Shown: positions 1-25,792 of the stretch, piece after piece
How the letters are laid out: the number at the start of each line of letters is the position of its first letter
Position numbering within the stretch: the first letter of the stretch is position 1
Source: Giardia intestinalis
Lineage: Eukaryota
Assembly (NCBI GenBank): GCA_000002435.2
Contig: CM018790.1
Reading direction: 5' to 3' (one strand)
DNA: 64,000 nucleotides
Translations under genes and position numbers: made by a program
The notes under the pieces: model-generated
Database searches by the model: none
Seen by the model: only the letters and a program-made list of their open reading frames with translations
Told to the model about the DNA's origin: nothing

Positions 1-2565
1 AACCTCCTTGAGTTGAAGGCTGCAGTGGACACAGAGCTGATAAATATTACTGCAGAAAGGGATTTATTGGTCGCATACACTACTCCATACGTGCTCGTTC
101 AAATATCGTCACGGCTTGAGTTTACAATCGACGTTCTTAACAAGCTGCTAGCTTTACAAGAGAAACGTGAACGTGTTATGGCTCACAGGCGGCGTGACGA
201 GTGCACTGCGGCCATTGAGTTATCAAATATTTATGCAGAGGATCTGGTATCATTTTCTTTATTGATTAAGATTCCTCTTGACGAACTACATAGACATGTA
301 CCTCCGCTAGATCAAATGTCACACAATCAGATCCAGAGTAGCTACTTTGCAGAGCTAATCGGGGCTTCAGACAAAGGTATCGATGTGCTAATTAATATCC
401 TCTCTCGGGGGATCGCCTTCATAGAAGTATCTTCTGTGACATCTACCTTTCATAGTTACATCATGACAAAGCTCCAGAATTCGTCTTCATTTGAAGATAT
501 CCTCTGGGTATATACCTTTGTGCATCGAGCTGTGCACGAGAAAGCTCTTGAAGTTATCCGTGTTTCCTTTTTTACTGCTGGTAGCAAAGTATTTGAAGAA
601 GTATCCAAGGCAATGGTCAGAGTTAGAGATAAGCAGACTTATGCCACTCTTAGTTGTGCAGACATTTTCAAAGAGCACATAAACAATGCGATTCTTCTTT
701 TTCTGATCCAGCACTATACTAACTTTCTTTTGACACATTGTTTCTCCCTCTCTGAAGATGAAGTAGGTGCCTCTACAACAAGACTATCAATGGCCATCAG
801 TACCTGCATTGATAATCTGACTCTTAGTGCATATATGAAGATGCGCAGCCTTTTTCTGGCTGATCTCTTCGTCAATGCATTTGACACTTATTACGAGCTT
901 CTCGAGAGTATGGAGATGCCATGGATTGTACTGTCCACTTTGAGAGGTAATGGCTTTGATAGCACTAACATCCTTTTGGAGCTATCTCAACAGAGTGGCG
1001 GCCCCAATGATATTAGGACACTTGTTGTGCCTATTCTCCTCAAGCATATCAAGAATGACAGTTGCTACGACCAAAAGGTGCTTGCGTTTCGTTCTATCTT
1101 TGACCCACAGTGGCACTCCTCCTTTCACAAACGAGGGGAGTACTATATTCATAGATCTAGCGCGACCAGGTCTCTGGTGGATTGCGTAGTTGTACTTGAG
1201 TGTGCAGTAGATATTCTTACACATGATAAACTGCAGAAGGCAGCCATGCTTGTAGATGCAGTTCAACAGCTTGCATTTCGAATTCTTCTCTTCCATATCT
1301 TCAGAGAGTCTAAGATTCCTTACACAGCAATGCAATGCAGTATCAGGACAAAGTTTCAAACCTATGCCACCAGCATCCACCAGCGCTTGACAGATAGCCT
1401 CTTTGTTGACAGTTCTCGGCTAGGGCCTGGCTCAGAGCACATATTGTTAGGCTTGCTACGTGAATACTCATTAACAATCTCTAACATTTTCCAGCACTCC
1501 AAGAAGTATACATTATTGACAGATGCAACGGGCATAACGCTTCGAGAAAGCTTGGCAGAAACAGTTGAGGAGCTAAACGCGTACTATCTTCTTCAGAATA
1601 TAATTCATAGTATATCCGAAAAATTATATCTTGAGACCCAAATGCCTGCAGCTTATGACCGTGACAAGCAACAGCATTCTGAGGACCCCAAGGACTTGTC
1701 TGCTACAGAGGAATTACCACCACCCCAGCCAGTGGAAGATGGGCAGATTGCTTGTGATGAGAGTGATATATTTGCATCAGAGTCATGTAACCCCTCTATG
1801 CTTACATCAACAAGCCAGCCGCTCGCTGACTCCGCCATGTTATCCATAAGGTCTTTGCAATCTGTTTATGCTGCTATTGAGTCGGTGATACAGAGTATTA
1901 TAGCAAGCGAATTGAATAGAAACTTCAATCTTGTTGAGATAATGTACACAACTATTAAGAATGCAGCTGGGGAATATCGAAAAGAGGCAAAGGTAGACCG
2001 AGCAAGTAAAACAGTATATTCCAGCAAGCTTATTTCAACTCTGAAAAATAATTTCTATAACTTACGATTTGGCGTTTTAGCAACCCAAAGCAGCATCAGT
2101 GTCTCTAGTACTGATTCTGTTCTCAGCATAGTTACTCCTCCAACTGGCTCTGTGGGGCGCCCAACTTGTTCCCTTTTTAACTATCAGTTTTATAATGCGT
2201 TTGTAATACATGCATGTCAATGCTTCATAGCATCTGCTAGCAGCATTCCAGTGTACACTGCATACGGCAGAACGTGTCTAATGTATGACTATTGCAGCCT
2301 TCACAGCTTCCTTAACAGCGTCCTTCCAGATTTTTGCTTACAGAGAGTTGAGATACAGCAACACTTTGAACTCGTGCGCTCTTACATAGATCTCTATTTT
2401 GGAAGTACGGATGACATACGCGTCGCTATCTCCACTAATAAGTTTGGAGTTGGTCCATTGTTAGCACTGATCAGAACGGGGCTGGCTTGTCGCCTGACTT
2501 CGGCACAGATCGACTCTCTAGTTCTTGAGCTACCTAGCTCATTGCAAGAAAGACAATCTACTTAA
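1..2565 (+). CDS. Hypothetical protein, probably 5'-partial (reading frame open to window start; first in-window start is TTG at 13). Predicted helical, no recognisable catalytic motifs.
   Basis: Uninterrupted 850-codon ORF 13..2565 with upstream codons 1-12 also open; sits in the denser, moderately AT-rich coding context typical of the rest of the window. Confidence 0.5.
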   Translation, partial: NLLELKAAVDTELINITAERDLLVAYTTPYVLVQISSRLEFTIDVLNKLLALQEKRERVMAHRRRDECTAAIELSNIYAEDLVSFSLLIKIPLDELHRHVPPLDQMSHNQIQSSYFAELIGASDKGIDVLINILSRGIAFIEVSSVTSTFHSYIMTKLQNSSSFEDILWVYTFVHRAVHEKALEVIRVSFFTAGSKVFEEVSKAMVRVRDKQTYATLSCADIFKEHINNAILLFLIQHYTNFLLTHCFSLSEDEVGASTTRLSMAISTCIDNLTLSAYMKMRSLFLADLFVNAFDTYYELLESMEMPWIVLSTLRGNGFDSTNILLELSQQSGGPNDIRTLVVPILLKHIKNDSCYDQKVLAFRSIFDPQWHSSFHKRGEYYIHRSSATRSLVDCVVVLECAVDILTHDKLQKAAMLVDAVQQLAFRILLFHIFRESKIPYTAMQCSIRTKFQTYATSIHQRLTDSLFVDSSRLGPGSEHILLGLLREYSLTISNIFQHSKKYTLLTDATGITLRESLAETVEELNAYYLLQNIIHSISEKLYLETQMPAAYDRDKQQHSEDPKDLSATEELPPPQPVEDGQIACDESDIFASESCNPSMLTSTSQPLADSAMLSIRSLQSVYAAIESVIQSIIASELNRNFNLVEIMYTTIKNAAGEYRKEAKVDRASKTVYSSKLISTLKNNFYNLRFGVLATQSSISVSSTDSVLSIVTPPTGSVGRPTCSLFNYQFYNAFVIHACQCFIASASSIPVYTAYGRTCLMYDYCSLHSFLNSVLPDFCLQRVEIQQHFELVRSYIDLYFGSTDDIRVAISTNKFGVGPLLALIRTGLACRLTSAQIDSLVLELPSSLQERQST

Positions 2566-4102
2566 TTGCCTTTCAAACTTTTAAACTACGTATATCCTAT
2601 ACGTATTTTTCAGATAGCATGACTGATAAGGCTTCTCTTTGTCCCATCTGAGATCGGAGAACCCGACCGTACCACACTTCGCGAAGATGTGTTTGTCTCA
2701 AACAGCATCAGGGTCACATATTCACCAGAAGAGGACGGGGGTTTGCCTGATGAAGAAGGCGACGTGTCCTCTGAGGCTCGATACAGACCCCGCTTGCTAG
2801 CTGCTACTGTGACAGGCCTATGTGTGCTTGCTGCCGCATTTCTTGGGGGAGCATTCAAGGAGTAGAGAAACCCATATCTTATACTGAGAAAGGCCGAAGA
2901 GAGGGTCTCAGATACAGGTGAAAGGATCCTTCCTTCAAAGATACTTTAGTAACACTGGTGTAGACAGAAGCCAAGAAGGCTGAATCTAATTTGGATAGTT
3001 ATGTCATTGTAACACCACCCAATAGCTTGCTGAGAATTAGGACTTTGCCAGTGGGGTGTGTGGTTGTGCTTGAAGTTGAGCCACACGGAGTTGATGGTTA
3101 GACTACAAAGTAGTCGAGTTGAAGCTGTTACAACTCCAGCGTATGGGAAGAATGCAAGTGGGCGAGTTGATCACTCGTTAGCTGTTCTATCCTTGGCCAA
3201 ACCACTTGGCCGTTCGCGTTCATCCTGTATATAAGATAGTGAATGCGCATGTAACCCTCAAGAAATGCTTTATGGGAGAAGCAGTGTAAGCGTATCGAGG
3301 AACAGAAGCACGGAGACTTCTCTTAGCTACATCAAGCAAATGCTAAAGAGGGCTGCTAGTCGGAGAGTGCTTTTGGATCTGCAGTAGGATGGCGAGCAGG
3401 CATCTCTCTTGTGGAGCCGTGTGATGCCCGTTATTTGGCATGCAAAGAAGATACCATCAGGCTTAGCCAGAAACAGCCGAACAGCCTTTCATATGGTCTA
3501 CCGGAGTCATTCAATACACAAAGACGAGGCACTGTCTCATTACCACAGCGGTCTTGACAAACCCAGGCGTGCAAATGCCAACAATGCAAGCGGGACAAGT
3601 ACCATATCGATAGAGACTTGGATCTCAAAAGCAAACAGAGAGCACCGACCGCTACAGCGTGTGCTTATGCTGTCATGTATCTAACACCAGCAAGTATAAT
3701 TAGTAACAGGTCACTTGTAGGGAGTCATTGACTGCAGTGTAGCAGTGAGCAAAAGATCTAGCGTCCATTATTTGTGATTCTTAAATGCGCGAACGTTGTT
3801 CACAGTTAATAGACTACTCCGAAGGTGCCAGGCACCGAAGAATGTACGGCTAGACGTGGCGGCCACAAATCATGTACAGAAACATCAAACTAAAAAGTAG
3901 GCGGTTACGGGCGACTTTCATGGATGCATTCAAGGAATGACTGAGGCATTGTTAGGCCTGCATAATGTATCTATCGCAGGAGAGATACAGGAGCTGATAG
4001 ACACGTAGCTTACTACAATAAGTCGACAAGCAAAGCGTGGTTCAGGAGGATGCGAACCACTGTTGCATATATTAGGTTGTTGGGTTATGCCCATAAGCAT
4101 CC

Positions 4103-7100
4103 TGTGGACCGAGGCCTGCGCTCCTACACTACAGTGCAGCGGGCGGACGAGGCAGAGCCTGAATGGTATCGGAATTCCGGGGCAAGGGCTGAGCCGCGAC
4201 TGAGAGAGCAGCCTGCAGAGGGTGGAGCATAGCTCTCTGCTAACTCGAGGCGGCACAACCTGGCAATAGGACGGCTAATCCAGCCGTATTGACGTCTGAT
4301 AGACGCACCGAATACGCACTTCATGACCTCCGAATATCGTATGATGTGTGCTGGACAAGGGCCTCCCGGTGCACTTCGAGGACAGGACTGTTTAGCTAAA
4401 GCTAGAAGAGCGGTTGAGTCGTTCCCATCGGCGGCGGATGCTGCCCTGTGGACGCATATTTAAGGCTGCATCCCTTCGACTGAGCAGACAGCCGCTGGGT
4501 TACGTGCGAGCGGCCCAGGGTCTCGCCTGCCGCCTGTCCGGGCCAGTCAGCAGCTAGACTCGACATGCAGATGGAAGCCATGATAACGGACGCCGTCACG
4601 GAGGTCCGCCGTTTACTACTAGAACGGACGTGTCCGTGGCGGCCACCGTCTCCTAGAACAGCGCCCCCCCGCACAGGGCCGGCTATGTCGCGCCAGCTTG
4701 CTCGATAAGGGGCATGGGGGTCCCTTACGACGCCCTTCGGCATCTGCCGTGTCATAGGTACCCATGGCCACGAGCAGCTCAAGGGACGCAGCTATGTGGG
4801 CAGGGTAGCGTATTCATGGAGGGGCAGCTGCTTCACCTGTGCATGGCGGCGCCGGCCAGCACGTCTAGCTGCCCCACTGGCGACCACTCCTTCCCTGTGC
4901 TTGCCACAATGGGAGAGCACGTGCGCCCGTAGACCGGCAGATGCCGTGCTGGTCCTCTCGAGCAGTAGGCGCATCCTTGCGTGACATTCAGCGTGGACCA
5001 GATACCATGACCTGGGCCATCGCTACTGGCAAAGCAAGTGCTGATTGCAGCAGGGACGCCCGCCGCCCTCCAAGATAGACCAGCAACTTGCGTGTGAGGC
5101 TAGCGATGGGGCCTGCGCACCAGCTGCTATGAGCCCAGCCTTCCGGGCATCTAGATCACAGCACACTCGTCAAAGATGCACACTCATTTGCATACTCGCT
5201 GCTAGCGTTGGACAACTGCGAGGTGTCTGTCTCCGGCCGCGCTTGCCTTAGTGCTGGTCCCTGGTGATACGCCTCAGCCGAGGAGGCTATCCGTACGCGG
5301 CAGTTCCCGGAGAGAAGGCAGGGGTGACCGGCGGGCCAGGGAGATAGGACTAGCACTAGCGAGTCCAGCCATCGGCCCGGGTTGCACAAAGGACGCCTGT
5401 AGTGCCTCCCCGGCTTCTGAGCATGGAAGGGCTGTGGGGTCTGCAGATGAGACGGACGCTGTCTTTTGATTTTATGTGTTTGTAGCAGCATAGTATTTAT
5501 CGGGGTCTGCTCTGTCTGAAACCGAGAACATTCGCTTTCTTTCCTTATACAGGCTGGGATCGATTGTAGAGGTGTGCTGTGCAAACCGGTGGCAGTCAGC
5601 GTATCTACTATCCAAACGGATACTGCCTGCGTCCTCTTGTGGCAGACCACCACCAGGGCTCCAATCTGCACATCTGTTCTGGCATCTGTCGGCCAATCAT
5701 CACCTCCTGTCGAAGGATTGCTATACGTCACATATCTTGAGTCGTTCATCGACCAGGTGGTGCCATAAGCTCTTGTCTCCTACTTGTCCACCCGATGCTT
5801 ACTCTGAGCGCCGTCAATTCACTCACGTCTGCACTACTCATCTGGGTGCCCCCTACTCTTCAAGAGCACATGCCCGCAACCGATGCTCCGTATTACGAGA
5901 GGAGCCAGCCGGGCCACTGCGCTGTGCATAGCTCTCATGGGCGTATTGTTATGCGCGCCCAGCCTTTCCACCTGTAAGCTGTCACGCGGTCACATGTGCG
6001 CCAGCGCCGCCGAGCTTTCGTGGTCTCGAGGGGCCCCTGATGCATGGAGCGCTTGCGCAAAGTCCTTCCACCACTGACCCAAGCCGACCCCTCGCAAGAT
6101 CCTCAGCGGAGTTGCATCCGAGATGTGTGCTTGCATTGCTGTCCAGGTGCATGTGCCGGCCCTGGTGCTTCTCACAAGCTTGCGAGCATCAATCTGGCCT
6201 CTACCGAACCGTATCAGAAATCAACGTCAAGACGTGATCCCCTCAGTCAGGCTCTGCAGGCTCCCAGAGCTACGCACCAAAGGGCCGTTCTTCTTTGGTT
6301 GTGCAGTGTGGGGAGATCCATCGAGCTACCACACCCTTTCTGTGTGGCGTGGTTTACGACGGGGGACGGGATCCCTGTGCTCATTGTCTATCTGCCCAGG
6401 GCCAGCCACAGCCCGGGTTGACAATGACAAGCGAACATCGCCCGGCTCCTTGTCAGCAGGTGGGAACTTCCGCCACCCCAGTACCCACAGCAACGGGTGC
6501 CGATCACTGGCAGAAGGACAAGACACCCAGGCTCCCGTTCCTTCCACTGATGGTAGCCCACTATGAAGAGCCCTTTGCCGCCTGCACCAACAACCTCAGG
6601 CACTGTGGGTCCAAGTACTTCCATAGTGGACAGCGGTAGCACTATGATGATCTGGGGTGACAGGAGTCCTAGTTCACTGGCTCAGGAGACAGCACGCTTT
6701 GGGTAGTGCTTCCATCTTGTCCAGATCTGGGAGGGCTGGCTGCCTTCTGAGCCCACCTGGCACCTTGTCAGGTGATGGAGTGTCTTAAAGTATTCATTAC
6801 AAAAGATCAGAAATAGCGCCATGCATTCCCAATAGATCAGAGCGTCTCACGAGCTACTCTATGCTGATTCACACCTTTCATGGACCCTAGCGACCACTGT
6901 AACCTTCTTTCGGGATCTCGCAAGGGACTGTCCTTGAGTGCGATTCCCCCACGACAGCCGGAAGTCGCAGACATAATCCAAAGGGATGAGAGTACTACAG
7001 AGGCTGAGAGGAGAGTGCCGATGCACAGGGGTCCGCAGAGACCCGACTCGTACAGGGAAGGCGTGGATGCTGGCTCTCCAGGGATGTAGAGACACCAGGA

Positions 7101-8170
7101 AAGGAGCCGGCAGTGGGGCTTAGGCGCAGCAAAGGCACCCGATTCGTTCTCTGATTGGCCGCGAGGCAGCAGGCACATGGGGCGGCATCACCGCTTGTTT
7201 TTGGATTTTCTGTTTCCCTGCGCGTTGTGCAGGGGTCCGTAGTGGTTTGAGTATCACAGGCTACACATAGTAGATGCGTTTACTACCTAAGTCATATCTA
7301 AATCTATGCCTTTCCGCGGCAGAGGAACCACCAGCAGAGGAAGCCGACGAGGCCCCCGACGATGATGACAGCGGCCACGGCGATGCCTGCAATGGCGCCG
7401 GTAGAAAGGCCACTCTTGTTCGTGCTTCCGCCGGCACTGTCACCGTTCATGAGGTAGCAGAGGACGGAGCCTTGATTATTAGATGGAGGAGCGCAGCTCA
7501 TGCAGCCAGTAACTCCCTTGACACTTCCACTGTTGCTGTCACACGAAGTGCATGGTCCAGCTGCTGATCCGACCATATAGTACCCAGCTGCGCATGACGT
7601 ACACTTATCAGAGCTATCTGCAGTCGAGCATGTCTTGCAGGTCGAATGACACGAGGGGCATGCTCCATTATTGGGCTGAAGACCATTGGCACATGTTTCG
7701 CACTCACCCTTGCTATCAGCTAATGTGCATATCTGTTTGCCTGGCTGCTTGGTAGTTTCATAGCAGCCGCCTTCCTTGAGGAAGTAGTTAGCGGCGCATT
7801 TGGTACATGCTCCATTATTCATTTCAGTACAGAAAGCTACTCGTGCGTTACTTGTTGTACAGACCCCGTTCAGAGGAGCCTGATTATCCACTGAGCACTG
7901 GGAGCAGTAGTCTGTCCCGCCGATCCTTGCCCCACAGACCTTACATCCGTTCTTGTCCGCCGTACACGCATCCCCGCAGGTGCCCCCTTGCATAGGATCA
8001 CTACTTTTGTATATTAATGCCTTGCCAGCAGGACAAGCACTACACTGATTGTTGGCTGGCCCAACGCACTCAGCGCACTCAGGGCTGCATGCCTTACACT
8101 TCCTGTCAGTATCTCCATAGTATCCGCTGATGGCCGTGCAGTCGGATACGCACTGATTTGTTGGAGTGAG
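4103..8170. repeat. Left arm of a ~4,068-bp near-perfect inverted repeat. Contains the last ~880 bp of VSP coding sequence on the minus strand, its AGTAAAC poly(A) signal and ~3.2 kb of GC-rich ORF-poor sequence.
   Basis: Every ORF in 3930-8188 has an identical mirror ORF in 11626-15711 on the opposite strand with coordinates summing to 19814 (e.g. 4402..4782(-) <-> 15032..15412(+); 7304..8188(-) <-> end of 9211..12510(+)). Outer boundary checked by reverse-complement comparison at 4103/15711, inner boundary at 8170/11644. Confidence 0.92.
7278..7284 (-). terminator. Giardia-type polyadenylation signal AGTAAAC (AGTPuAAPy) downstream of the left VSP C-terminal segment (mirror of 12530-12536).
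   Basis: Reverse complement of gtttact at 7278-7284. Lies 20 nt past the stop of the 7304..8188 ORF. Confidence 0.5.
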
Positions 8171-8892
8171 GTAGTTCCACCATTGCACTCAGTATAGGCT
8201 TCGTTCTCTTTGCCTTCGTTATTGCACGTCTTACAGCCCGGTGTTATGCAGTTGCTAGTCGATTGGCATTCAGTTGAATCAGCGCTAGGCTGGAAGCCTT
8301 CACTGTATGTGCAAGCACCACCCTGATTGGACGAGTTGGCAGGGCAACTAGCAACGCACGACTTTTTGTTGAGGCCAAAGATGGTCTTATCAGAATCGGG
8401 GCACTCTTTGCATACTGCTCCGTCGCCGTTCTTTTCACAAGTCTTACAATCTTTTGCCCCGCCCGATGTGCAGGTAGTGCAGGTTTTCGCTGCTTCATCT
8501 ATGTAGTGTGTTGCTGGGCAATCGCCCTGATTAACGCACGTGCCTGTCTCACTGCCATCCTCCTTCTTCAGGTAGAGCGTGGCTCCAGTACACGAGGTGC
8601 ACTGCGTCTCTGTATTCTCGCATGTCTTACAGCTGGAAGCACATTTGCTGCATTTCTTTCCATTACGTGAGTCCACAAAATACCCATTATTGTAATCGGC
8701 CTCCTCGACACACGACGTTACGCCGTCGACTGTCTTGACAATCTTGCCGCCTCCACATGCATTGCACATCGCTGCCTTAGTGTTACTAGGATTAGCTGGC
8801 GTATTTGCTATCTGAATGAGTATTGTGTCGTGGTTTCCCGCAGCGGAGAAACCGCCACAGAAGAAGCCGGTGGGATCACCGGTGATAAACAT
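7304..8892 (-). pseudogene. Variant-specific surface protein (VSP) pseudogene or chimera. The N-terminal Cys-rich segment (8014..8892) is joined out of frame (-1 nt) to the duplicated VSP C-terminal region (7304..8188). No signal peptide after its first ATG.
   Basis: Two overlapping minus-strand ORFs in different frames. The upstream one is CXXC-rich (CKTC, CTSC, CKEC...). The downstream one is identical to the C-terminus of the intact VSP, including the TM segment and CRGKA tail. Comparison with the right copy shows a 1-nt length difference at the junction (left aatggtggaactacc vs right aatgataaaagttatc), which is exactly the repeat boundary. In-frame upstream sequence hits TGA with no hydrophobic leader. 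Confidence 0.6.
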
Positions 8893-9210
8893 AGCAAAGG
8901 TAAGGTTGTACGAGGGTCAGTCCTCTGAATACATTTGTGCAGAGAACCACCGAGGGAATCAGAACAGATACAAGTGGGCTAGAGGCTTTGTTATTGAAAC
9001 AGGAACCTGCTACGTCAACGATGAAAGCCCGTTCTTGGCTTCAGAGGCAGAGTCATGACAGTAGCTAGCCACTGAATGATGACGCATCCATTAGAGCTTA
9101 TTGTTCTCAACGTCTGGATCTACAATCAGATTAGTGGCAGTCCATAGTTTTACTATTGCAATTCTTCGAAGAGCAGACGCGAGTCGATAACCGAGTGTAG
9201 GTTTCGGCTA

Positions 9211-12200
9211 ATGTTGCTAGGGCTTCTCCTATTTTGTGCAGTAGCACGGGCAAACTGCAAGGCCGGGAACACGCCCTCACAAGACGGGACGACGTGCGAG
9301 CCGAATGCAAACGGATGTGCCAAAGCCTTGACCGACGCCGGCTGTGCGACCTGCACCCCGGCGGGTGACGACCAGACGTGCCTCACCTGCAACCCCGGTT
9401 CAAACAAGGTCAGGCCGGACAGGAAGGGCTGCATCGCTTCGTGTCCCGCCAACTCGAACGAGGCAGGAGGAATCTGCACGTGCACGGCCGGGAACACGCC
9501 CTCACAAGACGGGACGACGTGCGAGCCGAATGCAAACGGATGTGCCAAAGCCTTGACCGACGCCGGCTGTGCGACCTGCACCCCGGCGGGTGACGACCAG
9601 ACGTGCCTCACCTGCAACCCCGGTTCAAACAAGGTCAGGCCGGACAGGAAGGGCTGCATCGCTTCGTGTCCCGCCAACTCGAACGAGGCAGGAGGAATCT
9701 GCACGTGCACGGCCGGGAACACGCCCTCACAAGACGGGACGACGTGCGAGCCGAATGCAAACGGATGTGCCAAAGCCTTGACCGACGCCGGCTGTGCGAC
9801 CTGCACCCCGGCGGGTGACGACCAGACGTGCCTCACCTGCAACCCCGGTTCAAACAAGGTCAGGCCGGACAGGAAGGGCTGCATCGCTTCGTGTCCCGCC
9901 AACTCGAACGAGGCAGGAGGAATCTGCACGTGCACGGCCGGGAACACGCCCTCACAAGACGGGACGACGTGCGAGCCGAATGCAAACGGATGTGCCAAAG
10001 CCTTGACCGACGCCGGCTGTGCGACCTGCACCCCGGCGGGTGACGACCAGACGTGCCTCACCTGCAACCCCGGTTCAAACAAGGTCAGGCCGGACAGGAA
10101 GGGCTGCATCGCTTCGTGTCCCGCCAACTCGAACGAGGCAGGAGGAATCTGCACGTGCACGGCCGGGAACACGCCCTCACAAGACGGGACGACGTGCGAG
10201 CCGAATGCAAACGGATGTGCCAAAGCCTTGACCGACGCCGGCTGTGCGACCTGCACCCCGGCGGGTGACGACCAGACGTGCCTCACCTGCAACCCCGGTT
10301 CAAACAAGGTCAGGCCGGACAGGAAGGGCTGCATCGCTTCGTGTCCCGCCAACTCGAACGAGGCAGGAGGAATCTGCACGTGCACGGCCGGGAACACGCC
10401 CTCACAAGACGGGACGACGTGCGAGCCGAATGCAAACGGATGTGCCAAAGCCTTGACCGACGCCGGCTGTGCGACCTGCACCCCGGCGGGTGACGACCAG
10501 ACGTGCCTCACCTGCAACCCCGGTTCAAACAAGGTCAGGCCGGACAGGAAGGGCTGCATCGCTTCGTGTCCCGCCAACTCGAACGAGGCAGGAGGAATCT
10601 GCACGTGCACGGCCGGGAACACGCCCTCACAAGACGGGACGACGTGCGAGCCGAATGCAAACGGATGTGCCAAAGCCTTGACCGACGCCGGCTGTGCGAC
10701 CTGCACCCCGGCGGGTGACGACCAGACGTGCCTCACCTGCAACCCCGGTTCAAACAAGGTCAGGCCGGACAGGAAGGGCTGCATCGCTTCGTGTCCCGCC
10801 AACTCGAACGAGGCAGGAGGAATCTGCACGTGCACGGCCGGGAACACGCCCTCACAAGACGGGACGACGTGCGAGCCGAATGCAAACGGATGTGCCAAAG
10901 CCTTGACCGACGCCGGCTGTGCGACCTGCACCCCGGCGGGTGACGACCAGACGTGCCTCACCTGCAACCCCGGTTCAAACAAGGTCAGGCCGGACAGGAA
11001 GGGCTGCATCGCTTCGTGTCCCGCCAACTCGAACGAGGCAGGAGGAATCTGCACGTGCACGGCCGGGAACACGCCCTCACAAGACGGGACGACGTGCGAG
11101 CCGAATGCAAACGGATGTGCCAAAGCCTTGACCGACGCCGGCTGTGCGACCTGCACCCCGGCGGGTGACGACCAGACGTGCCTCACCTGCAACCCCGGTT
11201 CAAACAAGGTCAGGCCGGACAGGAAGGGCTGCATCGCTTCGTGTCCCGCCAACTCGAACGAGGCAGGAGGAATCTGCACGTGCACGGCCGGGAACACGCC
11301 CTCACAAGACGGGACGACGTGCGAGCCGAATGCAAACGGATGTGCCAAAGCCTTGACCGACGCCGGCTGTGCGACCTGCACCCCGGCGGGTGACGACCAG
11401 ACGTGCCTCACCTGCAACCCCGGTTCAAACAAGGTCAGGCCGGACAGGAAGGGCTGCATCGCTTCGTGTCCCGCCAACTCGAACGAGGCAGGAGGAATCT
11501 GCACGTGCACGGCCGGGAACACGCCCTCACAAGACGGGACGACGTGCGTATCAGAGACGGCCTGCAATACTCCCAACTGCAAGGCATGTGATAACCCGAA
11601 GACTGACAGAGAGGTCTGTACTGAATGTAATGATAAAAGTTATCTCACTCCAACAAATCAGTGCGTATCCGACTGCACGGCCATCAGCGGATACTATGGA
11701 GATACTGACAGGAAGTGTAAGGCATGCAGCCCTGAGTGCGCTGAGTGCGTTGGGCCAGCCAACAATCAGTGTAGTGCTTGTCCTGCTGGCAAGGCATTAA
11801 TATACAAAAGTAGTGATCCTATGCAAGGGGGCACCTGCGGGGATGCGTGTACGGCGGACAAGAACGGATGTAAGGTCTGTGGGGCAAGGATCGGCGGGAC
11901 AGACTACTGCTCCCAGTGCTCAGTGGATAATCAGGCTCCTCTGAACGGGGTCTGTACAACAAGTAACGCACGAGTAGCTTTCTGTACTGAAATGAATAAT
12001 GGAGCATGTACCAAATGCGCCGCTAACTACTTCCTCAAGGAAGGCGGCTGCTATGAAACTACCAAGCAGCCAGGCAAACAGATATGCACATTAGCTGATA
12101 GCAAGGGTGAGTGCGAAACATGTGCCAATGGTCTTCAGCCCAATAATGGAGCATGCCCCTCGTGTCATTCGACCTGCAAGACATGCTCGACTGCAGATAG

Positions 12201-12510
12201 CTCTGATAAGTGTACGTCATGCGCAGCTGGGTACTATATGGTCGGATCAGCAGCTGGACCATGCACTTCGTGTGACAGCAACAGTGGAAGTGTCAAGGGA
12301 GTTGCTGGCTGCATGAGCTGCGCTCCTCCATCTAATAATCAAGGCTCCGTCCTCTGCTACCTCATGAACGGTGACAGTGCCGGCGGAAGCACGAACAAGA
12401 GTGGCCTTTCTACCGGCGCCATTGCAGGCATCGCCGTGGCCGCTGTCATCATCGTCGGGGGCCTCGTCGGCTTCCTCTGCTGGTGGTTCCTCTGCCGCGG
12501 AAAGGCATAG
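9211..12510 (+). CDS. vsp: Variant-specific surface protein (VSP), intact, 1099 aa. Has signal peptide MLLGLLLFCAVARA, ~10 identical 75-aa Cys-rich tandem repeats, conserved C-terminal Cys-rich region, a TM segment (GAIAGIAVAAVIIVGGLVGFLCWWFL) and the CRGKA cytoplasmic tail.
   Basis: ATG at 9211; many CXXC motifs; GGCY-like motif; C-terminal ...CWWFLCRGKA* is the invariant Giardia VSP tail; AGTAAAC poly(A) signal 20 nt after the TAG stop. Confidence 0.92.
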   Translation: MLLGLLLFCAVARANCKAGNTPSQDGTTCEPNANGCAKALTDAGCATCTPAGDDQTCLTCNPGSNKVRPDRKGCIASCPANSNEAGGICTCTAGNTPSQDGTTCEPNANGCAKALTDAGCATCTPAGDDQTCLTCNPGSNKVRPDRKGCIASCPANSNEAGGICTCTAGNTPSQDGTTCEPNANGCAKALTDAGCATCTPAGDDQTCLTCNPGSNKVRPDRKGCIASCPANSNEAGGICTCTAGNTPSQDGTTCEPNANGCAKALTDAGCATCTPAGDDQTCLTCNPGSNKVRPDRKGCIASCPANSNEAGGICTCTAGNTPSQDGTTCEPNANGCAKALTDAGCATCTPAGDDQTCLTCNPGSNKVRPDRKGCIASCPANSNEAGGICTCTAGNTPSQDGTTCEPNANGCAKALTDAGCATCTPAGDDQTCLTCNPGSNKVRPDRKGCIASCPANSNEAGGICTCTAGNTPSQDGTTCEPNANGCAKALTDAGCATCTPAGDDQTCLTCNPGSNKVRPDRKGCIASCPANSNEAGGICTCTAGNTPSQDGTTCEPNANGCAKALTDAGCATCTPAGDDQTCLTCNPGSNKVRPDRKGCIASCPANSNEAGGICTCTAGNTPSQDGTTCEPNANGCAKALTDAGCATCTPAGDDQTCLTCNPGSNKVRPDRKGCIASCPANSNEAGGICTCTAGNTPSQDGTTCEPNANGCAKALTDAGCATCTPAGDDQTCLTCNPGSNKVRPDRKGCIASCPANSNEAGGICTCTAGNTPSQDGTTCVSETACNTPNCKACDNPKTDREVCTECNDKSYLTPTNQCVSDCTAISGYYGDTDRKCKACSPECAECVGPANNQCSACPAGKALIYKSSDPMQGGTCGDACTADKNGCKVCGARIGGTDYCSQCSVDNQAPLNGVCTTSNARVAFCTEMNNGACTKCAANYFLKEGGCYETTKQPGKQICTLADSKGECETCANGLQPNNGACPSCHSTCKTCSTADSSDKCTSCAAGYYMVGSAAGPCTSCDSNSGSVKGVAGCMSCAPPSNNQGSVLCYLMNGDSAGGSTNKSGLSTGAIAGIAVAAVIIVGGLVGFLCWWFLCRGKA
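9262..11547 (+). repeat. In-frame tandem array of ~10.2 identical 225-bp units inside the VSP gene. Each unit encodes 75 aa (...AGNTPSQDGTTCEPNANGCAKALTDAGCATCTPAGDDQTCLTCNPGSNKVRPDRKGCIASCPANSNEAGGICTCT).
   Basis: Identical shadow ORFs recur every 225 nt (9344, 9569, 9794 ... 11369) on the plus strand, and the minus-strand ORF 9153..11582 shows a matching 75-aa periodicity. No unit-to-unit differences visible in the translations. Confidence 0.93.
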
Positions 12511-15500
12511 ATTTAGATATGACTTAGGTAGTAAACGCATCTACTATGTGTAGCCTGTGATACTCAAACCACTACGGACCCCTGCACAACGCGCAGGGAA
12601 ACAGAAAATCCAAAAACAAGCGGTGATGCCGCCCCATGTGCCTGCTGCCTCGCGGCCAATCAGAGAACGAATCGGGTGCCTTTGCTGCGCCTAAGCCCCA
12701 CTGCCGGCTCCTTTCCTGGTGTCTCTACATCCCTGGAGAGCCAGCATCCACGCCTTCCCTGTACGAGTCGGGTCTCTGCGGACCCCTGTGCATCGGCACT
12801 CTCCTCTCAGCCTCTGTAGTACTCTCATCCCTTTGGATTATGTCTGCGACTTCCGGCTGTCGTGGGGGAATCGCACTCAAGGACAGTCCCTTGCGAGATC
12901 CCGAAAGAAGGTTACAGTGGTCGCTAGGGTCCATGAAAGGTGTGAATCAGCATAGAGTAGCTCGTGAGACGCTCTGATCTATTGGGAATGCATGGCGCTA
13001 TTTCTGATCTTTTGTAATGAATACTTTAAGACACTCCATCACCTGACAAGGTGCCAGGTGGGCTCAGAAGGCAGCCAGCCCTCCCAGATCTGGACAAGAT
13101 GGAAGCACTACCCAAAGCGTGCTGTCTCCTGAGCCAGTGAACTAGGACTCCTGTCACCCCAGATCATCATAGTGCTACCGCTGTCCACTATGGAAGTACT
13201 TGGACCCACAGTGCCTGAGGTTGTTGGTGCAGGCGGCAAAGGGCTCTTCATAGTGGGCTACCATCAGTGGAAGGAACGGGAGCCTGGGTGTCTTGTCCTT
13301 CTGCCAGTGATCGGCACCCGTTGCTGTGGGTACTGGGGTGGCGGAAGTTCCCACCTGCTGACAAGGAGCCGGGCGATGTTCGCTTGTCATTGTCAACCCG
13401 GGCTGTGGCTGGCCCTGGGCAGATAGACAATGAGCACAGGGATCCCGTCCCCCGTCGTAAACCACGCCACACAGAAAGGGTGTGGTAGCTCGATGGATCT
13501 CCCCACACTGCACAACCAAAGAAGAACGGCCCTTTGGTGCGTAGCTCTGGGAGCCTGCAGAGCCTGACTGAGGGGATCACGTCTTGACGTTGATTTCTGA
13601 TACGGTTCGGTAGAGGCCAGATTGATGCTCGCAAGCTTGTGAGAAGCACCAGGGCCGGCACATGCACCTGGACAGCAATGCAAGCACACATCTCGGATGC
13701 AACTCCGCTGAGGATCTTGCGAGGGGTCGGCTTGGGTCAGTGGTGGAAGGACTTTGCGCAAGCGCTCCATGCATCAGGGGCCCCTCGAGACCACGAAAGC
13801 TCGGCGGCGCTGGCGCACATGTGACCGCGTGACAGCTTACAGGTGGAAAGGCTGGGCGCGCATAACAATACGCCCATGAGAGCTATGCACAGCGCAGTGG
13901 CCCGGCTGGCTCCTCTCGTAATACGGAGCATCGGTTGCGGGCATGTGCTCTTGAAGAGTAGGGGGCACCCAGATGAGTAGTGCAGACGTGAGTGAATTGA
14001 CGGCGCTCAGAGTAAGCATCGGGTGGACAAGTAGGAGACAAGAGCTTATGGCACCACCTGGTCGATGAACGACTCAAGATATGTGACGTATAGCAATCCT
14101 TCGACAGGAGGTGATGATTGGCCGACAGATGCCAGAACAGATGTGCAGATTGGAGCCCTGGTGGTGGTCTGCCACAAGAGGACGCAGGCAGTATCCGTTT
14201 GGATAGTAGATACGCTGACTGCCACCGGTTTGCACAGCACACCTCTACAATCGATCCCAGCCTGTATAAGGAAAGAAAGCGAATGTTCTCGGTTTCAGAC
14301 AGAGCAGACCCCGATAAATACTATGCTGCTACAAACACATAAAATCAAAAGACAGCGTCCGTCTCATCTGCAGACCCCACAGCCCTTCCATGCTCAGAAG
14401 CCGGGGAGGCACTACAGGCGTCCTTTGTGCAACCCGGGCCGATGGCTGGACTCGCTAGTGCTAGTCCTATCTCCCTGGCCCGCCGGTCACCCCTGCCTTC
14501 TCTCCGGGAACTGCCGCGTACGGATAGCCTCCTCGGCTGAGGCGTATCACCAGGGACCAGCACTAAGGCAAGCGCGGCCGGAGACAGACACCTCGCAGTT
14601 GTCCAACGCTAGCAGCGAGTATGCAAATGAGTGTGCATCTTTGACGAGTGTGCTGTGATCTAGATGCCCGGAAGGCTGGGCTCATAGCAGCTGGTGCGCA
14701 GGCCCCATCGCTAGCCTCACACGCAAGTTGCTGGTCTATCTTGGAGGGCGGCGGGCGTCCCTGCTGCAATCAGCACTTGCTTTGCCAGTAGCGATGGCCC
14801 AGGTCATGGTATCTGGTCCACGCTGAATGTCACGCAAGGATGCGCCTACTGCTCGAGAGGACCAGCACGGCATCTGCCGGTCTACGGGCGCACGTGCTCT
14901 CCCATTGTGGCAAGCACAGGGAAGGAGTGGTCGCCAGTGGGGCAGCTAGACGTGCTGGCCGGCGCCGCCATGCACAGGTGAAGCAGCTGCCCCTCCATGA
15001 ATACGCTACCCTGCCCACATAGCTGCGTCCCTTGAGCTGCTCGTGGCCATGGGTACCTATGACACGGCAGATGCCGAAGGGCGTCGTAAGGGACCCCCAT
15101 GCCCCTTATCGAGCAAGCTGGCGCGACATAGCCGGCCCTGTGCGGGGGGGCGCTGTTCTAGGAGACGGTGGCCGCCACGGACACGTCCGTTCTAGTAGTA
15201 AACGGCGGACCTCCGTGACGGCGTCCGTTATCATGGCTTCCATCTGCATGTCGAGTCTAGCTGCTGACTGGCCCGGACAGGCGGCAGGCGAGACCCTGGG
15301 CCGCTCGCACGTAACCCAGCGGCTGTCTGCTCAGTCGAAGGGATGCAGCCTTAAATATGCGTCCACAGGGCAGCATCCGCCGCCGATGGGAACGACTCAA
15401 CCGCTCTTCTAGCTTTAGCTAAACAGTCCTGTCCTCGAAGTGCACCGGGAGGCCCTTGTCCAGCACACATCATACGATATTCGGAGGTCATGAAGTGCGT

Positions 15501-15711
15501 ATTCGGTGCGTCTATCAGACGTCAATACGGCTGGATTAGCCGTCCTATTGCCAGGTTGTGCCGCCTCGAGTTAGCAGAGAGCTATGCTCCACCCTCTGCA
15601 GGCTGCTCTCTCAGTCGCGGCTCAGCCCTTGCCCCGGAATTCCGATACCATTCAGGCTCTGCCTCGTCCGCCCGCTGCACTGTAGTGTAGGAGCGCAGGC
15701 CTCGGTCCACA
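11644..15711. repeat. Right arm of the ~4,068-bp inverted repeat (mirror of 4103-8170).
   Basis: Same as left arm. One confirmed difference: right 12304 g vs the complement of left 7510 t, giving VSP residue A vs T (GVAGCM vs GVTGCM). Confidence 0.92.
12530..12536 (+). terminator. Polyadenylation signal AGTAAAC (AGTPuAAPy consensus) for the VSP gene.
   Basis: agtaaac located 20 nt downstream of the TAG at 12508-12510. Confidence 0.55.
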
Positions 15712-15909
15712 CTTCAGTGTTACCCATTCCCATAGTGCAATCCGTCACATTAGAAGATCAAGGATGTTTTAGCTTAGTCTTTGCAACCATCTATGAAGAG
15801 TGCTTCGCAAAGGAAAGAACATGGCAAAACTTTATTGGGACTTTGTCCAGCACTCTTCTAAGCCTAGAATCCGCATTGCCAACGACTAGGGAAGTATCGA
15901 ATGTTCTAG

Positions 15910-16862
15910 GAAACCGCTTGGAAGCACAGCCCACGATATGTTGCCCTGCAAGAGCCTTTCCCTTTAACTCGGCGCATTCAGCCATGCACTCCCACCTCTA
16001 TAGAATTCCGAGACGTCTGCTTTTCCTACAAGACGGGCTGCGATATTCTACATGGCTTGACCCTGTTTGTTCATCCCGGTCAGAAGGTTGCTATCGTGGG
16101 AGGTCGGGGATTGGCAAGTCCACGATCATCAACCTCTTGACGCGGCTATACACCACACCCCAGCATCAGGACACTTCGTCGCCCGGAATCTATCTCAATG
16201 GCAGGGCTATAGGGTCCATCCCACGCGAGGAGCTACGGAGGCTTATAACAGTCGTCCCGCAGGATAACATACTCATCAGGGGCTCTGCCACGGACAACAT
16301 CGCCTATGGACAGCCTCGCAAGCTCCCGGGCTCCCACGCAGAAGAGGAGCAGAGGCGCTACATCCGAGAAGTCATTCGGCTATGCTACGAGGCTTCCCGT
16401 GTTGTTGCGGCTGAAGAGCTCCTGGGAGACGCACCATACAGTGGAACCCTGCAGGGCCTTTCTGGGGGACAACGCCAACGGGTAGGAATTGCCAGAGCTG
16501 TCGCACGTGGAGGCAGCGTTCTTGTGCTCGACGAGGCGACGTCGGCACTCGACGAAGAGACAGAGAAGCGGGTCCTCCAACAGCTATTCCGCTCACTGGA
16601 CCCCAACCAGAGCGTCGTCATTATCAGTCACAGACTCTCCACTCTCCGGTATGTCGACCTGATTTATGTCCTAGATAATCCAGATGGCAGTGGAGCGCGC
16701 GTGGTAGAGTCAGGCTCGTACGACTGGTTCGTTGCCGAAAGCCAATATCTGAAGGATGCAGGCCAGGATATCTCTGACCTTGTGAGTAACTGTGGCTGTA
16801 GCAGCGCAGGTGTTACCCCAGGCTTCTCCCATGCAACTCTTGATGCAAAGGGGGATCCGTAG
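15910..16862 (+). pseudogene. ABC-transporter C-terminal nucleotide-binding-domain remnant (ABCB/MDR-like NBD). No start codon or transmembrane domain, and a 1-nt deletion (G-run ~16098-16104) splits the Walker A motif between two frames.
   Basis: Frame +1 (15910-16110): ...SIEFRDVCFSYKTGCDILHGLTLFVHPGQKVAIVGG. After the shift, frame 0 continues: SGIGKSTIINLL...IAYGQP...LSGGQRQRVGIARAV (ABC signature)...VLVLDEATSALD (Walker B)...ISHRLSTL (H-loop). The long 15558..16862 ORF only seems to start inside the inverted repeat because the repeat's GC-rich DNA reads open in that frame. Confidence 0.7.
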
Positions 16863-16903
16863 AAGCAAAGCACGCCTGGTGGCGAAGACGAGTAAAAATA
16901 AAA

Positions 16904-17500
16904 ATGCCAGCAAATGAACACTGCGCAGATCTGATTTCTCGCCTGTTATATTTGCGCTCCCTACAAGCCCTGTACATAAACAGACGCGTCGAAAAAACGG
17001 TCTACATGAAACAGATAAATGACCTTTTTGGTATTCCAGGATCCCAAGAGGGGCCCATTCAAATCCTACTCAAAAGCCTAAAAATTGGAACACTTAGTGA
17101 ACTTCGCAGGTTGCTGAAGAACTACGAGATAGATTGCACTGAAATATCGTCTATTGAATACATTCTGCTTGAGCGCAAAGTCGTCAGTGGGGAGTATTGC
17201 CAGAAGGTAGATAAAAATACCAGGGAGCTGCTCGAATGCTTGTATGAAACAATAAACCTCCTAACGCCCAATTCGCCCCTAAGTTATGATCAACTTCTAA
17301 CGTATGGCAATAATCTGGTGTCCAAAGCAAAAAAACTCACAGATGGCGTCAACTCAACGTGGCCAGTACTCAAGGAACTCGAAGGCTTAGTAGAACAGAT
17401 AGAGCATGAAGCTAATTTGAAAACAAACATCTGTCCAGCAGATTTAAAAAGTGCATTTGCAGAACGTTTAAAAAGCATATATGATAAAATATTCTGCTGA
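16904..17500 (+). CDS. Hypothetical protein (198 aa). Stops at a TGA that is in frame with, and 3 nt before, the next ORF.
   Basis: ATG at 16904; no recognisable motifs. Confidence 0.4.
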   Translation: MPANEHCADLISRLLYLRSLQALYINRRVEKTVYMKQINDLFGIPGSQEGPIQILLKSLKIGTLSELRRLLKNYEIDCTEISSIEYILLERKVVSGEYCQKVDKNTRELLECLYETINLLTPNSPLSYDQLLTYGNNLVSKAKKLTDGVNSTWPVLKELEGLVEQIEHEANLKTNICPADLKSAFAERLKSIYDKIFC

Positions 17501-17503
17501 CAA

Positions 17504-18274: not shown

Positions 18275-18348
18275 CCTGCCATACTAGCGAATGGGCCCGC
18301 CGAACTTGAAAAAGGACAATCAAGCAACATGAAAATTCCAAAAAAGAG

Positions 18349-22826: not shown

Positions 22827-22950
22827 CTATGCGAAGTACAAGAATTTATTTGGAGATAAAGATAATAAGAAAACAAGACGGTAGAACACTAGAATATCTG
22901 AATAAGAATCTAGTCCTAACTCTAATGCAGAACAAAGGACAAAGATGCTG

Positions 22951-25734: not shown

Positions 25735-25792
25735 ACCAGCTCAATATCGGGCAAAAAAGCAGAGGCCTTGTTTTTTCAAAAGACTCTTTAAA

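What the first reader, a model, noticed from the sequence alone, without database searches (positions are those of the whole stretch)
4103..15711. Near-perfect 4.07-kb inverted repeat flanking a head-to-head VSP gene pair
The arms 4103-8170 and 11644-15711 are reverse complements of each other over ~4,068 bp. Every ORF in one arm has an identical mirror ORF in the other, with coordinates summing to 19814. The 3.47-kb spacer holds the divergent, non-identical 5' parts of two VSP genes and their shared 318-bp upstream region. Each arm holds the last ~880 bp of VSP coding sequence, the AGTAAAC poly(A) signal and ~3.2 kb of downstream DNA. Identity extends far beyond the family-level conservation of the VSP C-terminus. 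Only one difference between arms was found, so the duplication is either very recent or kept uniform by gene conversion. A palindrome this large makes the locus prone to hairpin or cruciform formation, fold-back rearrangement and assembly error, and could drive VSP repertoire diversification.
Basis: seen in the sequence. Interest (0 to 1): 0.85.

Follow-up and report, generated by a model that had tools for sequence, protein, structure and literature searches.

The report
Old VSP palindrome kept identical
The 4-kb inverted repeat is real and flanks one intact Giardia surface-antigen (VSP) gene and one broken one; it is an old inverted duplication whose arms were recently made identical by gene conversion, so it is one more example of a known kind of Giardia VSP locus.

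Summary
Arms 4103-8170 and 11644-15711 are reverse complements with one mismatch (7510/12304). The window is Giardia intestinalis WB C6, and the locus is vsp165/vsp166 of the 2010 VSP catalogue.

- The right gene (9211-12510, 1099 aa, intact) carries a near-perfect 225-bp x 10.2 tandem array.
- The left "gene" is a pseudogene. It is 5'-truncated, has no signal peptide or Inr, and is frameshifted just inside the spacer. The 2020 annotation lists no protein for it.

The arms' 3.2 kb of downstream DNA holds no recognisable gene or RNA and is GC-rich (58% against 48.6%).

Contigs from isolate DH (AII) show an inverted repeat at the same locus with the same outer junction. There the outer 0.8 kb of the arms is only about 61% identical, next to a 99%-identical tract. 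WB's arms match DH's right arm. The P15 (assemblage E) right arm matches DH's left-arm type.

So the duplication is old, and WB's near-identity comes from recent arm-to-arm gene conversion. It is neither a new duplication nor an assembly artefact. Inverted VSP pairs are already well described in WB. Cruciform or diversification roles remain untested. Interest is modest.

The parts
4103..8170 (.). Left arm of the inverted repeat. It holds 3201 nt of GC-rich non-coding DNA (4103-7303) plus the last 867 nt of VSP coding sequence (7304-8170, minus strand).
   Evidence: one mismatch against the right arm; no Pfam domain, Rfam family, tRNA or clear VSP relic in the non-coding part; GC 0.58
11644..15711 (.). 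Right arm. It holds the last 867 nt of the intact VSP gene, the poly(A) signal at 12530-12536, and 3201 nt of downstream DNA. Its sequence type is shared with DH's right arm.
8171..11643 (.). The 3473-nt spacer that is not repeated in inverted orientation. It holds the unique part of the pseudo-VSP, the 318-bp intergenic stretch, and the leader, tandem array and 95 unique nt of the right VSP.
9211..12510 (+). Intact VSP gene of 1099 aa (KAE8302486.1 / XP_001703907.2; vsp165 of Adam et al. 2010). It has the signal peptide MLLGLLLFCAVARA, the Inr TAATGTT, a TM segment and a CRGKA tail.
   Evidence: PF03302, 296 bits
9256..11548 (+). Tandem array of 225 bp (75 aa) x 10.2 inside the right VSP. Units 2-10 are identical and unit 1 differs by 1 nt. 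The 2010 catalogue protein was 75 aa, one unit, shorter (1024 aa).
   Evidence: a WB paralogue carries a single related unit
8014..8892 (-). Pseudo-VSP, upstream reading frame (292 aa, XP_001704632.1 of the 2007 annotation; vsp166 / GL50803_112048 by position and features). It is 5'-truncated and has no signal peptide or Inr. It runs out of frame into the arm and stops at 8014.
7304..8188 (-). Arm-encoded VSP C-terminal frame of the pseudo-VSP (294 codons, ending CRGKA). It is offset by one base from the upstream frame. One base is missing at GGAAC (about 8174-8178) compared with the in-frame DH relative.
8893..9210 (.). The 318-bp stretch between the two start codons. Only the right-hand end carries a VSP-type initiator (CTAATGTTG).
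7510..7510 (.). The only arm-to-arm difference (partner 12304). It changes VAGC (right gene, the family-typical form) to VTGC (left copy).
15944..16862 (+). Context only, outside the arm. A frameshifted ABC-transporter nucleotide-binding-domain pseudogene, copied from the 3' end of an intact ABC gene on another WB chromosome. It lies 232 nt beyond the right arm.

Best explanation
This is a genuine, long-lived inverted duplication at the vsp165/vsp166 locus of Giardia intestinalis WB (a 1.54-Mb chromosome; chromosome 2 in Adam et al. 2010). The duplicated unit is the 3' 0.87 kb of a VSP gene plus 3.2 kb of non-coding, GC-rich downstream DNA. It lies in mirror orientation on both sides of a 3.47-kb spacer.

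In the WB lineage the two copies were recently made identical over the whole length of the old duplicated segment by non-reciprocal gene conversion between the arms. The right-arm sequence type was written over the left arm. The conversion stopped where homology stops. On the outside that is the original duplication junction. On the inside it is the conserved YLTPTNQC motif, where the two genes' 5' parts become unrelated.

The result is one functional tandem-repeat VSP facing a 5'-truncated, frameshifted pseudo-VSP that carries a pristine copy of the functional gene's 3' half.

Shown: the geometry; the pseudogene status; the shared outer junction in WB and DH; the diverged and mosaic arms in DH; and the arm DNA at the same flank in P15.

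Inferred: the mechanism (gene conversion), its direction and its recency.
For: - Arms are 4068 nt with one mismatch.
- The DH left-flank contig L020 is collinear with the WB left flank up to 4102. It then continues into a diverged copy of the arm that starts at the same junction (TGTGGACCGAGG). It is about 61% identical to the DH right arm and to both WB arms, whereas WB arms versus the DH right arm are 88-90% identical.
- Further in, L020 15326-15749 is the reverse complement of DH right contig L002 1-424 at 99.06%. DH therefore has an inverted repeat here too, homogenised only in part.
- WB arm-to-arm identity (99.98%) far exceeds WB-DH identity in the same DNA (60-95%). This is the signature of concerted evolution.
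- The P15 (assemblage E) contig L025 carries arm DNA, the ABC pseudogene and GL50803_8348 in the same order. Its arm is of the DH-left type: 74.5% against 65% over 750 shared columns, and 1043 nt collinear. So the two arm types have changed sides between lineages.
- The non-coding arm DNA is 58% GC against 48.6% for the rest of the window and 44-47% for adjacent unique DNA.
- A population study of Giardia reports gene-conversion tracts with a median of 3.3 kb that are GC-enriched and enriched in VSPs (PMC12669663).
- The frameshifted left ORF is identical in the 2007 Sanger-based annotation (XP_001704632.1). The pair was listed as head-to-head in 2010.
Against: - Only about 0.4-1.3 kb of the DH arms and about 2 kb of one P15 arm could be examined. 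The DH and P15 assemblies are fragmented and end inside the arms.
- DH contig L001 has the same head-to-head layout, but it does not join L020 cleanly (82% in the overlap). The DH inner arms are therefore unresolved.
- The direction right to left assumes that the DH right arm keeps the older state. P15's right arm is of the other type, so the WB type could have come from a third locus. DH has a further copy of the outer 291 nt plus the ABC fragment elsewhere (L016).
- No reads were available, so the exact level of arm identity in WB could be inflated by polishing with multi-mapping reads.
Confidence: 0.75

Rival explanations
1. A brand-new inverted duplication in the WB (AI) lineage. A 4.07-kb piece (VSP 3' end plus downstream DNA) was copied once, very recently, in inverted orientation onto the other side. 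The arms are identical simply because no time has passed, with no conversion involved.
For: There is one difference in 4068 nt. Adam et al. 2010 proposed recent duplication for the identical inverted VSP pairs.
Against: DH already has a left-arm copy that begins at the identical junction but is about 39% diverged from the right arm. It also has a 99%-identical inner tract. P15 has the arm DNA at the right flank. The left gene is 5'-truncated in DH as well: its ORF differs upstream but also lacks a signal peptide. A new duplication landing exactly on an older, diverged copy with the same end point would in effect be a conversion.
Confidence: 0.1
2. An assembly or polishing artefact. The palindrome, or its near-perfect identity, was created by the long-read assembler or by consensus polishing with reads that map to both arms. 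In that case the real arms differ, or come from distinct loci.
For: Repeats of this kind ended contigs in the 2007 assembly. No short-read assembly reconstructs the full right gene (cluster of one). Logan contigs near the locus take at least one questionable path.
Against: The locus is internal to a 1.54-Mb contig and has an asymmetric 3.47-kb spacer and one arm-to-arm difference. Independent DH contigs cross both outer junctions and a P15 contig crosses the right one. The DH flank contigs both stop at mirror-image positions inside the arms, as expected for a true repeat. The head-to-head pair and the frameshifted left ORF were already in the Sanger-era data.
Confidence: 0.05
3. A selected functional element. 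The inverted repeat exists because it does something. It might yield long hairpin or double-stranded RNA covering the VSP 3' region that feeds the RNAi pathway implicated in VSP silencing. Or it might act as a fragile site (hairpin, cruciform, fold-back) that generates new VSP variants.
For: There is no direct evidence here. An 867-nt VSP 3' segment is present in both orientations within 12 kb. The structure appears to have persisted across assemblages. Papers in the library cite RNAi control of VSP switching.
Against: The two genes are divergent, so normal transcription runs outward and does not read through both arms. The left copy has no initiator. The arms' non-coding 3.2 kb evolves fast between isolates (60-95% against 98.5% in flanking genes). 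This argues against sequence-level constraint. The 3.47-kb spacer disfavours cruciform extrusion (general knowledge). Persistence is explained by conversion alone.
Confidence: 0.07

Closest known systems
Inverted pairs of VSP genes in Giardia WB (vsp1267; the 14 identical pairs of Adam et al. 2010, PMC2996952; the 19 duplicated pairs of Xu et al. 2020, PMC7000408)
   Same: The organism and gene family are the same. The layout is mirror-image, with a few kb between the repeated parts. Identity ends abruptly on both sides. The surroundings are GC-rich and gene-poor. Such loci break short-read assemblies.
   Different: In the known pairs the whole ORFs are identical and identity ends 139-729 bp beyond the coding region. 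Here only the last 289 codons are shared, identity runs 3.2 kb past the stop codon, one partner is a truncated pseudogene, and the start codons are 318 bp apart. The pair is absent from Xu et al.'s Table 2. It was listed in 2010 only as a non-identical head-to-head pair.
Large palindromes kept uniform by arm-to-arm gene conversion, such as the ampliconic palindromes of primate Y chromosomes (from my own knowledge)
   Same: The arms are near-identical around a unique spacer. Arm-to-arm identity is much higher than identity to the orthologous arm in a related lineage. The arm DNA is GC-enriched. The structure is older than the lineages that carry it.
   Different: This one is 10-100 times smaller. 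It is in a tetraploid, binucleate protist in which AI is reported as asexual. The arms carry part of one gene and no other recognisable gene. Homogenisation is patchy in the sister lineage DH.
Tandem-repeat VSPs (vspA6/CRP170, vspC5; 30 such genes in Adam et al. 2010)
   Same: The right gene has the classic build: a short leader, then many identical repeat units, then a unique region and the conserved tail. A paralogue has a single unit, as with vspA6 and A6-S1. Copy number differs between assemblies.
   Different: This concerns the spacer, not the palindrome itself. The repeat period is 225 bp, shared with vsp21 and vsp95 in the 2010 table.

Membership tests
Giardia VSP (PF03302) - right gene | Pfam VSP domain with a C-terminal TM segment and CRGKA tail | tested here: met
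   PF03302 at 296 bits (cut-off 31.4); the sequence ends ...FLCWWFLCRGKA.
Giardia VSP (PF03302) - right gene | N-terminal signal peptide, VSP initiator (TAATGTT or CAATGTT) at the start codon, and AGTAAAC poly(A) signal | tested here: met
   One search shows MLLGLLLFCAVARA (judged by eye; no predictor was run). One search shows CTAATGTTG at 9211 and AGTAAAC 20 nt after the stop. One search lists vsp165 with TAATGTT.
Giardia VSP - left gene as a functional member | A continuous ORF from signal peptide to CRGKA | tested here: not met
   two frames offset by one base at about 8176; relatives have about 150 more N-terminal residues, including a leader; the upstream ORF scores 23 bits, below the cut-off; no protein accession lies between KAE8302485 and KAE8302486.
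Identical inverted VSP pairs (Adam 2010; Xu 2020) | Two VSP genes in head-to-head or tail-to-tail orientation | tested here: met
   (both flagged HH).
Identical inverted VSP pairs (Adam 2010; Xu 2020) | The two ORFs are identical over their whole length | tested here: not met
   identity covers only 867 nt of 3300. The pair is not in Xu et al.'s Table 2.
Identical inverted VSP pairs (Adam 2010; Xu 2020) | 2-4 kb of non-coding DNA between the ORFs, with flanking identity ending 139-729 bp from the coding region | tested here: not met
   There are 318 bp between the start codons. Identity extends 3201 nt beyond the stop codons.
Palindromes homogenised by arm-to-arm gene conversion | Arm-to-arm identity exceeds identity to the orthologous arm in a sister lineage | tested here: met
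   WB arm-to-arm identity is 99.98%. WB against DH in the same DNA is 60-95%.
Palindromes homogenised by arm-to-arm gene conversion | The inverted duplication is older than the split of the lineages compared | tested here: met
   WB and DH share the same outer junction, and the DH left copy is about 39% diverged. For the A/E split the evidence is indirect, because only the P15 right arm was seen.
Palindromes homogenised by arm-to-arm gene conversion | Conversion events observed directly (phased reads, pedigrees or clones) | not testable with these tools
   No read data or clonal lines were available.
Long-read assembly fold-back artefact | No support from independent assemblies, a position at a contig end, and no spacer | tested here: not met
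Transposon with long terminal inverted repeats | A transposase or reverse transcriptase between or within the repeats | tested here: not met
   A six-frame Pfam scan of the arm downstream DNA found nothing. The spacer holds only VSP sequence.

The most novel reading that the evidence does not exclude
The palindrome predates the split of assemblages A and E. It has been re-homogenised repeatedly, in either direction and over tracts of different length, in separate lineages. The pseudo-VSP arm would then act as a resident template or sink for the constant 3' half of an expressed tandem-repeat VSP. That would make this a small, tractable model of Y-palindrome-like concerted evolution by mitotic gene conversion in a tetraploid protist that may be asexual. 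It might also be a route by which pseudogene sequence enters an expressed VSP.
Probability: 0.3. Interest if true: 0.5.

Novelty: new member of a known kind. Interest (0 to 1): 0.3.

Why it matters
Inverted VSP duplications are a known hallmark of the Giardia WB genome, so the structure itself does not change the picture. The useful points are narrower.
1. This pair is a partial-gene palindrome joining an intact VSP to a pseudo-VSP. Neither published list of identical pairs covers this type.
2. The cross-isolate comparison suggests that at least this perfect VSP repeat is an old structure refreshed by gene conversion. The 2010 paper proposed recent duplication for the identical pairs. This bears on how the VSP repertoire evolves in a lineage reported to be asexual.
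3. Annotators and read-mappers should treat 4103-8170 and 11644-15711 as two-copy sequence, and should treat the left ORF as a pseudogene.

Tried and rejected
- Hidden genes or RNAs in the arms' 3.2 kb: six-frame Pfam scans, Rfam and tRNA scans and tblastn with 122 VSP proteins (best E about 1e-3, not significant after multiple testing) all gave nothing.
- The idea that the right arm's outer end lies inside an ABC-transporter gene: tblastn with the closest intact relatives shows ABC homology only from 15895 onward, outside the arm.
- DH contig L004 as the orthologue of the right gene's 3' end: rejected, because its downstream DNA does not match the arm.
- Logan contigs L005-L011, which lack any VSP upstream of GL50803_8348 and could be read as isolates without the palindrome: rejected as evidence. 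Their only differences from the window lie in 15944-16874. Their ABC protein is the WB copy from another chromosome (XP_001710177.1). The DH intact-ABC locus leaves the 8348 locus at window-equivalent 17028. So these contigs probably pass through a 1.09-kb segmental duplicate.
- Fetching the WB 2020 chromosome itself by protein look-up failed. Other WB loci, and any copies of the arm DNA elsewhere in the WB genome, could therefore not be examined.
- The reason why WB-like short-read contigs stop at 2693 was not found.
Full report

Yes. The repeat finder finds a single long inverted pair in the window, 4103-8173 against 11641-15711, with 3467 nt between the arms. A base-by-base comparison of positions summing to 19814 shows one mismatch inside 4103-8170, at 7510 (partner 12304). 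Similarity is lost abruptly outside 4103/15711 and from 8171/11643 inward. ORFs are mirrored.

Each arm holds three things:
- the last 867 nt of VSP coding sequence;
- the AGTAAAC signal 20 nt after the stop (12530-12536, mirror 7278-7284);
- 3201 nt of further DNA.

A 4-kb exact inverted match is far beyond chance in 64 kb.

**2. Where are we?**

Exact protein look-ups place the window in Giardia intestinalis WB clone C6, on a 1,539,535-bp contig of the 2020 assembly. The protein accessions run consecutively:
- KAE8302485 (GL50803_00102071, left flank);
- KAE8302486 (the 1099-aa VSP);
- KAE8302487-89 (GL50803_8348, GL50803_8349 and a NEK kinase).

In the VSP catalogue of Adam et al. 2010 the pair appears as two entries:
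- vsp165: head-to-head, 225-bp tandem repeat, chromosome 2, Inr TAATGTT, 1024 aa;
- vsp166: GL50803_112048, head-to-head, no Inr.

**3.

*The right gene.* The right gene (9211-12510) is an intact VSP. It scores 296 bits on PF03302 and has a signal peptide, the Inr CTAATGTTG and a CRGKA tail. After a 45-nt leader, its 5' part is a 225-bp x 10.2 tandem array. Units 2-10 are identical and unit 1 differs by one base. The current protein is exactly one unit longer than in the 2010 catalogue. A WB paralogue on another chromosome (P0135, 92% identical in the C-terminal 322 aa) has a single related unit.

*The left gene.* The left "gene" is a pseudogene, on four grounds:
- Its upstream ORF (8892-8014) has no signal peptide. 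Its relatives carry about 150 more N-terminal residues, including a leader.
- It has no VSP initiator.
- It is one base out of frame with the arm-encoded C-terminus. It reads GGAAC where the in-frame DH relative has AACAAC, a few bases inside the spacer.
- It has no protein entry in the 2020 annotation.

The same broken ORF is present in the 2007 annotation (XP_001704632.1), so the frameshift is not a long-read error.

*The arms' downstream DNA.* The 3.2 kb of downstream DNA in each arm has no Pfam domain in any frame, no Rfam family, no tRNA and no convincing VSP relic. It is 58% GC, against 48.6% for the rest of the window and 44-47% for the adjacent unique DNA.

*Beyond the right arm.* After 232 unique bases there is a frameshifted ABC-transporter nucleotide-binding-domain fragment (15944-16862). 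It is a copy of the 3' end of an intact ABC gene on another WB chromosome. It is not part of the arm.

**4. Evidence from other isolates**

*DH (sub-assemblage AII).* The right-flank contig L002 matches the window from 14488 to 27512. Identity is about 98.5% in the housekeeping genes, falls to 93-95% in the ABC fragment, and to 67-93% inside the arm.

The left-flank contig L020 matches 1-3600 at about 98%. It then continues across the WB arm boundary into a sequence that is a diverged copy of the arm, beginning at the same junction (...|TGTGGACCGAGG). Over the outer ~0.8 kb:
- the DH left arm is about 61% identical to the DH right arm and to both WB arms;
- the WB arms are 88-90% identical to the DH right arm.

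Further in, L020 15326-15749 is the reverse complement of L002 1-424 at 99.06%. Both contigs end at mirror-image positions, as expected when an assembler meets a true repeat.

DH therefore has an inverted repeat at this locus with the same outer end. It is homogenised only over an inner tract.

*P15 (assemblage E).* Contig L025 has arm-like DNA, the ABC fragment and GL50803_8348 in the same order. Its arm is collinear with the DH left-arm type (1043 nt at 71%). Over 750 columns shared by all four sequences:
- it is 74.5% identical to the DH left arm;
- it is about 65% identical to the WB and DH right arms.

The two old arm types thus sit on different sides in different lineages.

**5. What this means**

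The simplest reading is as follows. The inverted duplication is old. It certainly predates the AI/AII split, and probably predates the A/E split.

Its arms undergo non-reciprocal gene conversion from time to time, with different extent and direction in different lineages. In WB a recent event, or series of events, made the arms identical over the whole stretch in which they were still homologous.

This explains both abrupt boundaries:
- the outer one is the original duplication junction;
- the inner one lies in the conserved ...TECN..YLTPTNQC motif, beyond which the two genes' 5' parts are unrelated.

It also explains why a dead gene carries a pristine 3' half. The single arm difference gives the left copy VTGC where the right gene and its paralogues have VAGC.

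The size (4.07 kb) and GC-richness fit the gene-conversion tracts reported for Giardia AI/AII. Those have a median of 3.3 kb, are GC-enriched and are enriched in VSPs (PMC12669663).

The mechanism, its direction and its timing are inferences. No reads were available to observe conversion directly.

**6. Rivals**

- *A brand-new duplication in WB.* This is hard to reconcile with the diverged DH left arm that shares the junction.
- *An assembly artefact.* This is unlikely for the architecture. The locus is internal to a chromosome-sized contig. It has an asymmetric spacer and one arm difference. Independent DH contigs cross both outer junctions and a P15 contig crosses the right one. The pair was already in Sanger-era data. 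Only the exact level of identity could still be inflated by polishing.
- *A selected role (hairpin RNA for RNAi, or a fragile site).* This has no support here. The genes are divergent, the left one has no initiator, the arm DNA evolves fast between isolates, and the 3.47-kb spacer disfavours cruciform extrusion.

**7. Comparison with what is known**

Inverted VSP pairs are a described feature of WB. Adam et al. 2010 list 14 identical pairs plus 5 non-identical ones. Xu et al. 2020 list 19 duplicated pairs. A 2022 preprint notes that some VSPs are partially duplicated.

This locus fails the definition of an identical pair:
- only 289 codons are shared;
- identity extends 3.2 kb beyond the stop, not 0.1-0.7 kb;
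- one partner is a pseudogene.

It is plainly the same kind of thing. In behaviour it resembles large palindromes kept uniform by arm-to-arm conversion, at a much smaller scale.

**8. Loose ends**

- DH contig L001 has the same head-to-head layout, with the repeat-VSP start, the intergenic stretch and a truncated left VSP. It is 90-99% identical to the WB spacer. Yet it does not join L020 cleanly: they are 82% identical in the overlap. It may be a paralogous locus, an unconverted allele, or evidence that L020's tip was extended with right-arm reads.
- Logan short-read contigs from WB-like samples stop at window 2693, 1.4 kb before the arm, for no reason visible in the window.
- Other Logan contigs join the intact ABC gene to GL50803_8348. 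This probably happens through the 1.09-kb duplicated segment.

**9. Verdict**

The locus is a real partial-gene VSP palindrome: a new member of a known kind, with cross-isolate evidence that its perfection comes from gene conversion of an old duplication. Interest is modest.

Noticed in passing
window 9256-11548: A near-perfect 225-bp (75-aa) x 10.2 tandem array makes up most of the right VSP's exposed part. Units 2-10 are identical. The protein is exactly one unit longer than in the 2010 catalogue (1099 against 1024 aa), so copy number either varies or was collapsed earlier. The 809-aa antisense ORF 9153-11582 is a by-product of the repeat.
   Followed up: partly
window 15944-17028: A ~1.09-kb segmental duplicate of the 3' end of an intact ABC-transporter gene (XP_001710177 / KAE8303138, on the 1,973,847-bp WB contig). 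It carries 28 substitutions or indels, including a frameshift near 16130, so it is a pseudogene. The duplicate runs on through the first ~125 nt of GL50803_8348. The closest non-Giardia relatives of this ABC protein in the search were bacterial MsbA-type half-transporters at about 40% identity.
   Followed up: partly
L016 671-2146 (DH contig AHGT01000035.1): DH has a further copy of the module made of the outer 291 nt of the arm, the 232 unique nt and the ABC fragment (window 15421-16895, 95%). It sits at a different locus next to unrelated genes. Pieces of this region have therefore been copied around the genome.
   Followed up: no
L005-L011 (Logan contigs of several SRA runs): Short-read contigs place the intact 933-aa ABC gene directly upstream of GL50803_8348. 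All 28 differences from the window fall in 15944-16874 and identity is 100% after that. This is probably a path through the duplicated segment, but a real structural variant in some WB-like lines is not excluded.
   Followed up: partly
window 2635-2693: Contigs from many WB-like read sets end here, about 130 nt after the stop of GL50803_00102071 and 1.4 kb before the left arm. AII-like contigs end at 2741. No repeat or low-complexity sequence explains this within the window. A copy of 2693-4102 may exist elsewhere in the genome, or the site may be heterozygous.
   Followed up: partly
window 3800-4102 against L020 14148-14460: WB-DH identity already drops from about 98% to 65-75% some 300 nt outside the WB left-arm boundary. 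The fast-evolving or exchanged zone is therefore wider than the perfect arm.
   Followed up: no
L001 (DH contig AHGT01000171.1) 1541-2518: The in-frame DH relative of the left gene (ESU34723.1, 546 aa) has a C-terminal half only 63-73% identical to the WB arms. It shares a near-identical internal block with another DH VSP fragment (L004). This suggests mosaic exchange among VSP 3' halves in DH as well.
   Followed up: partly
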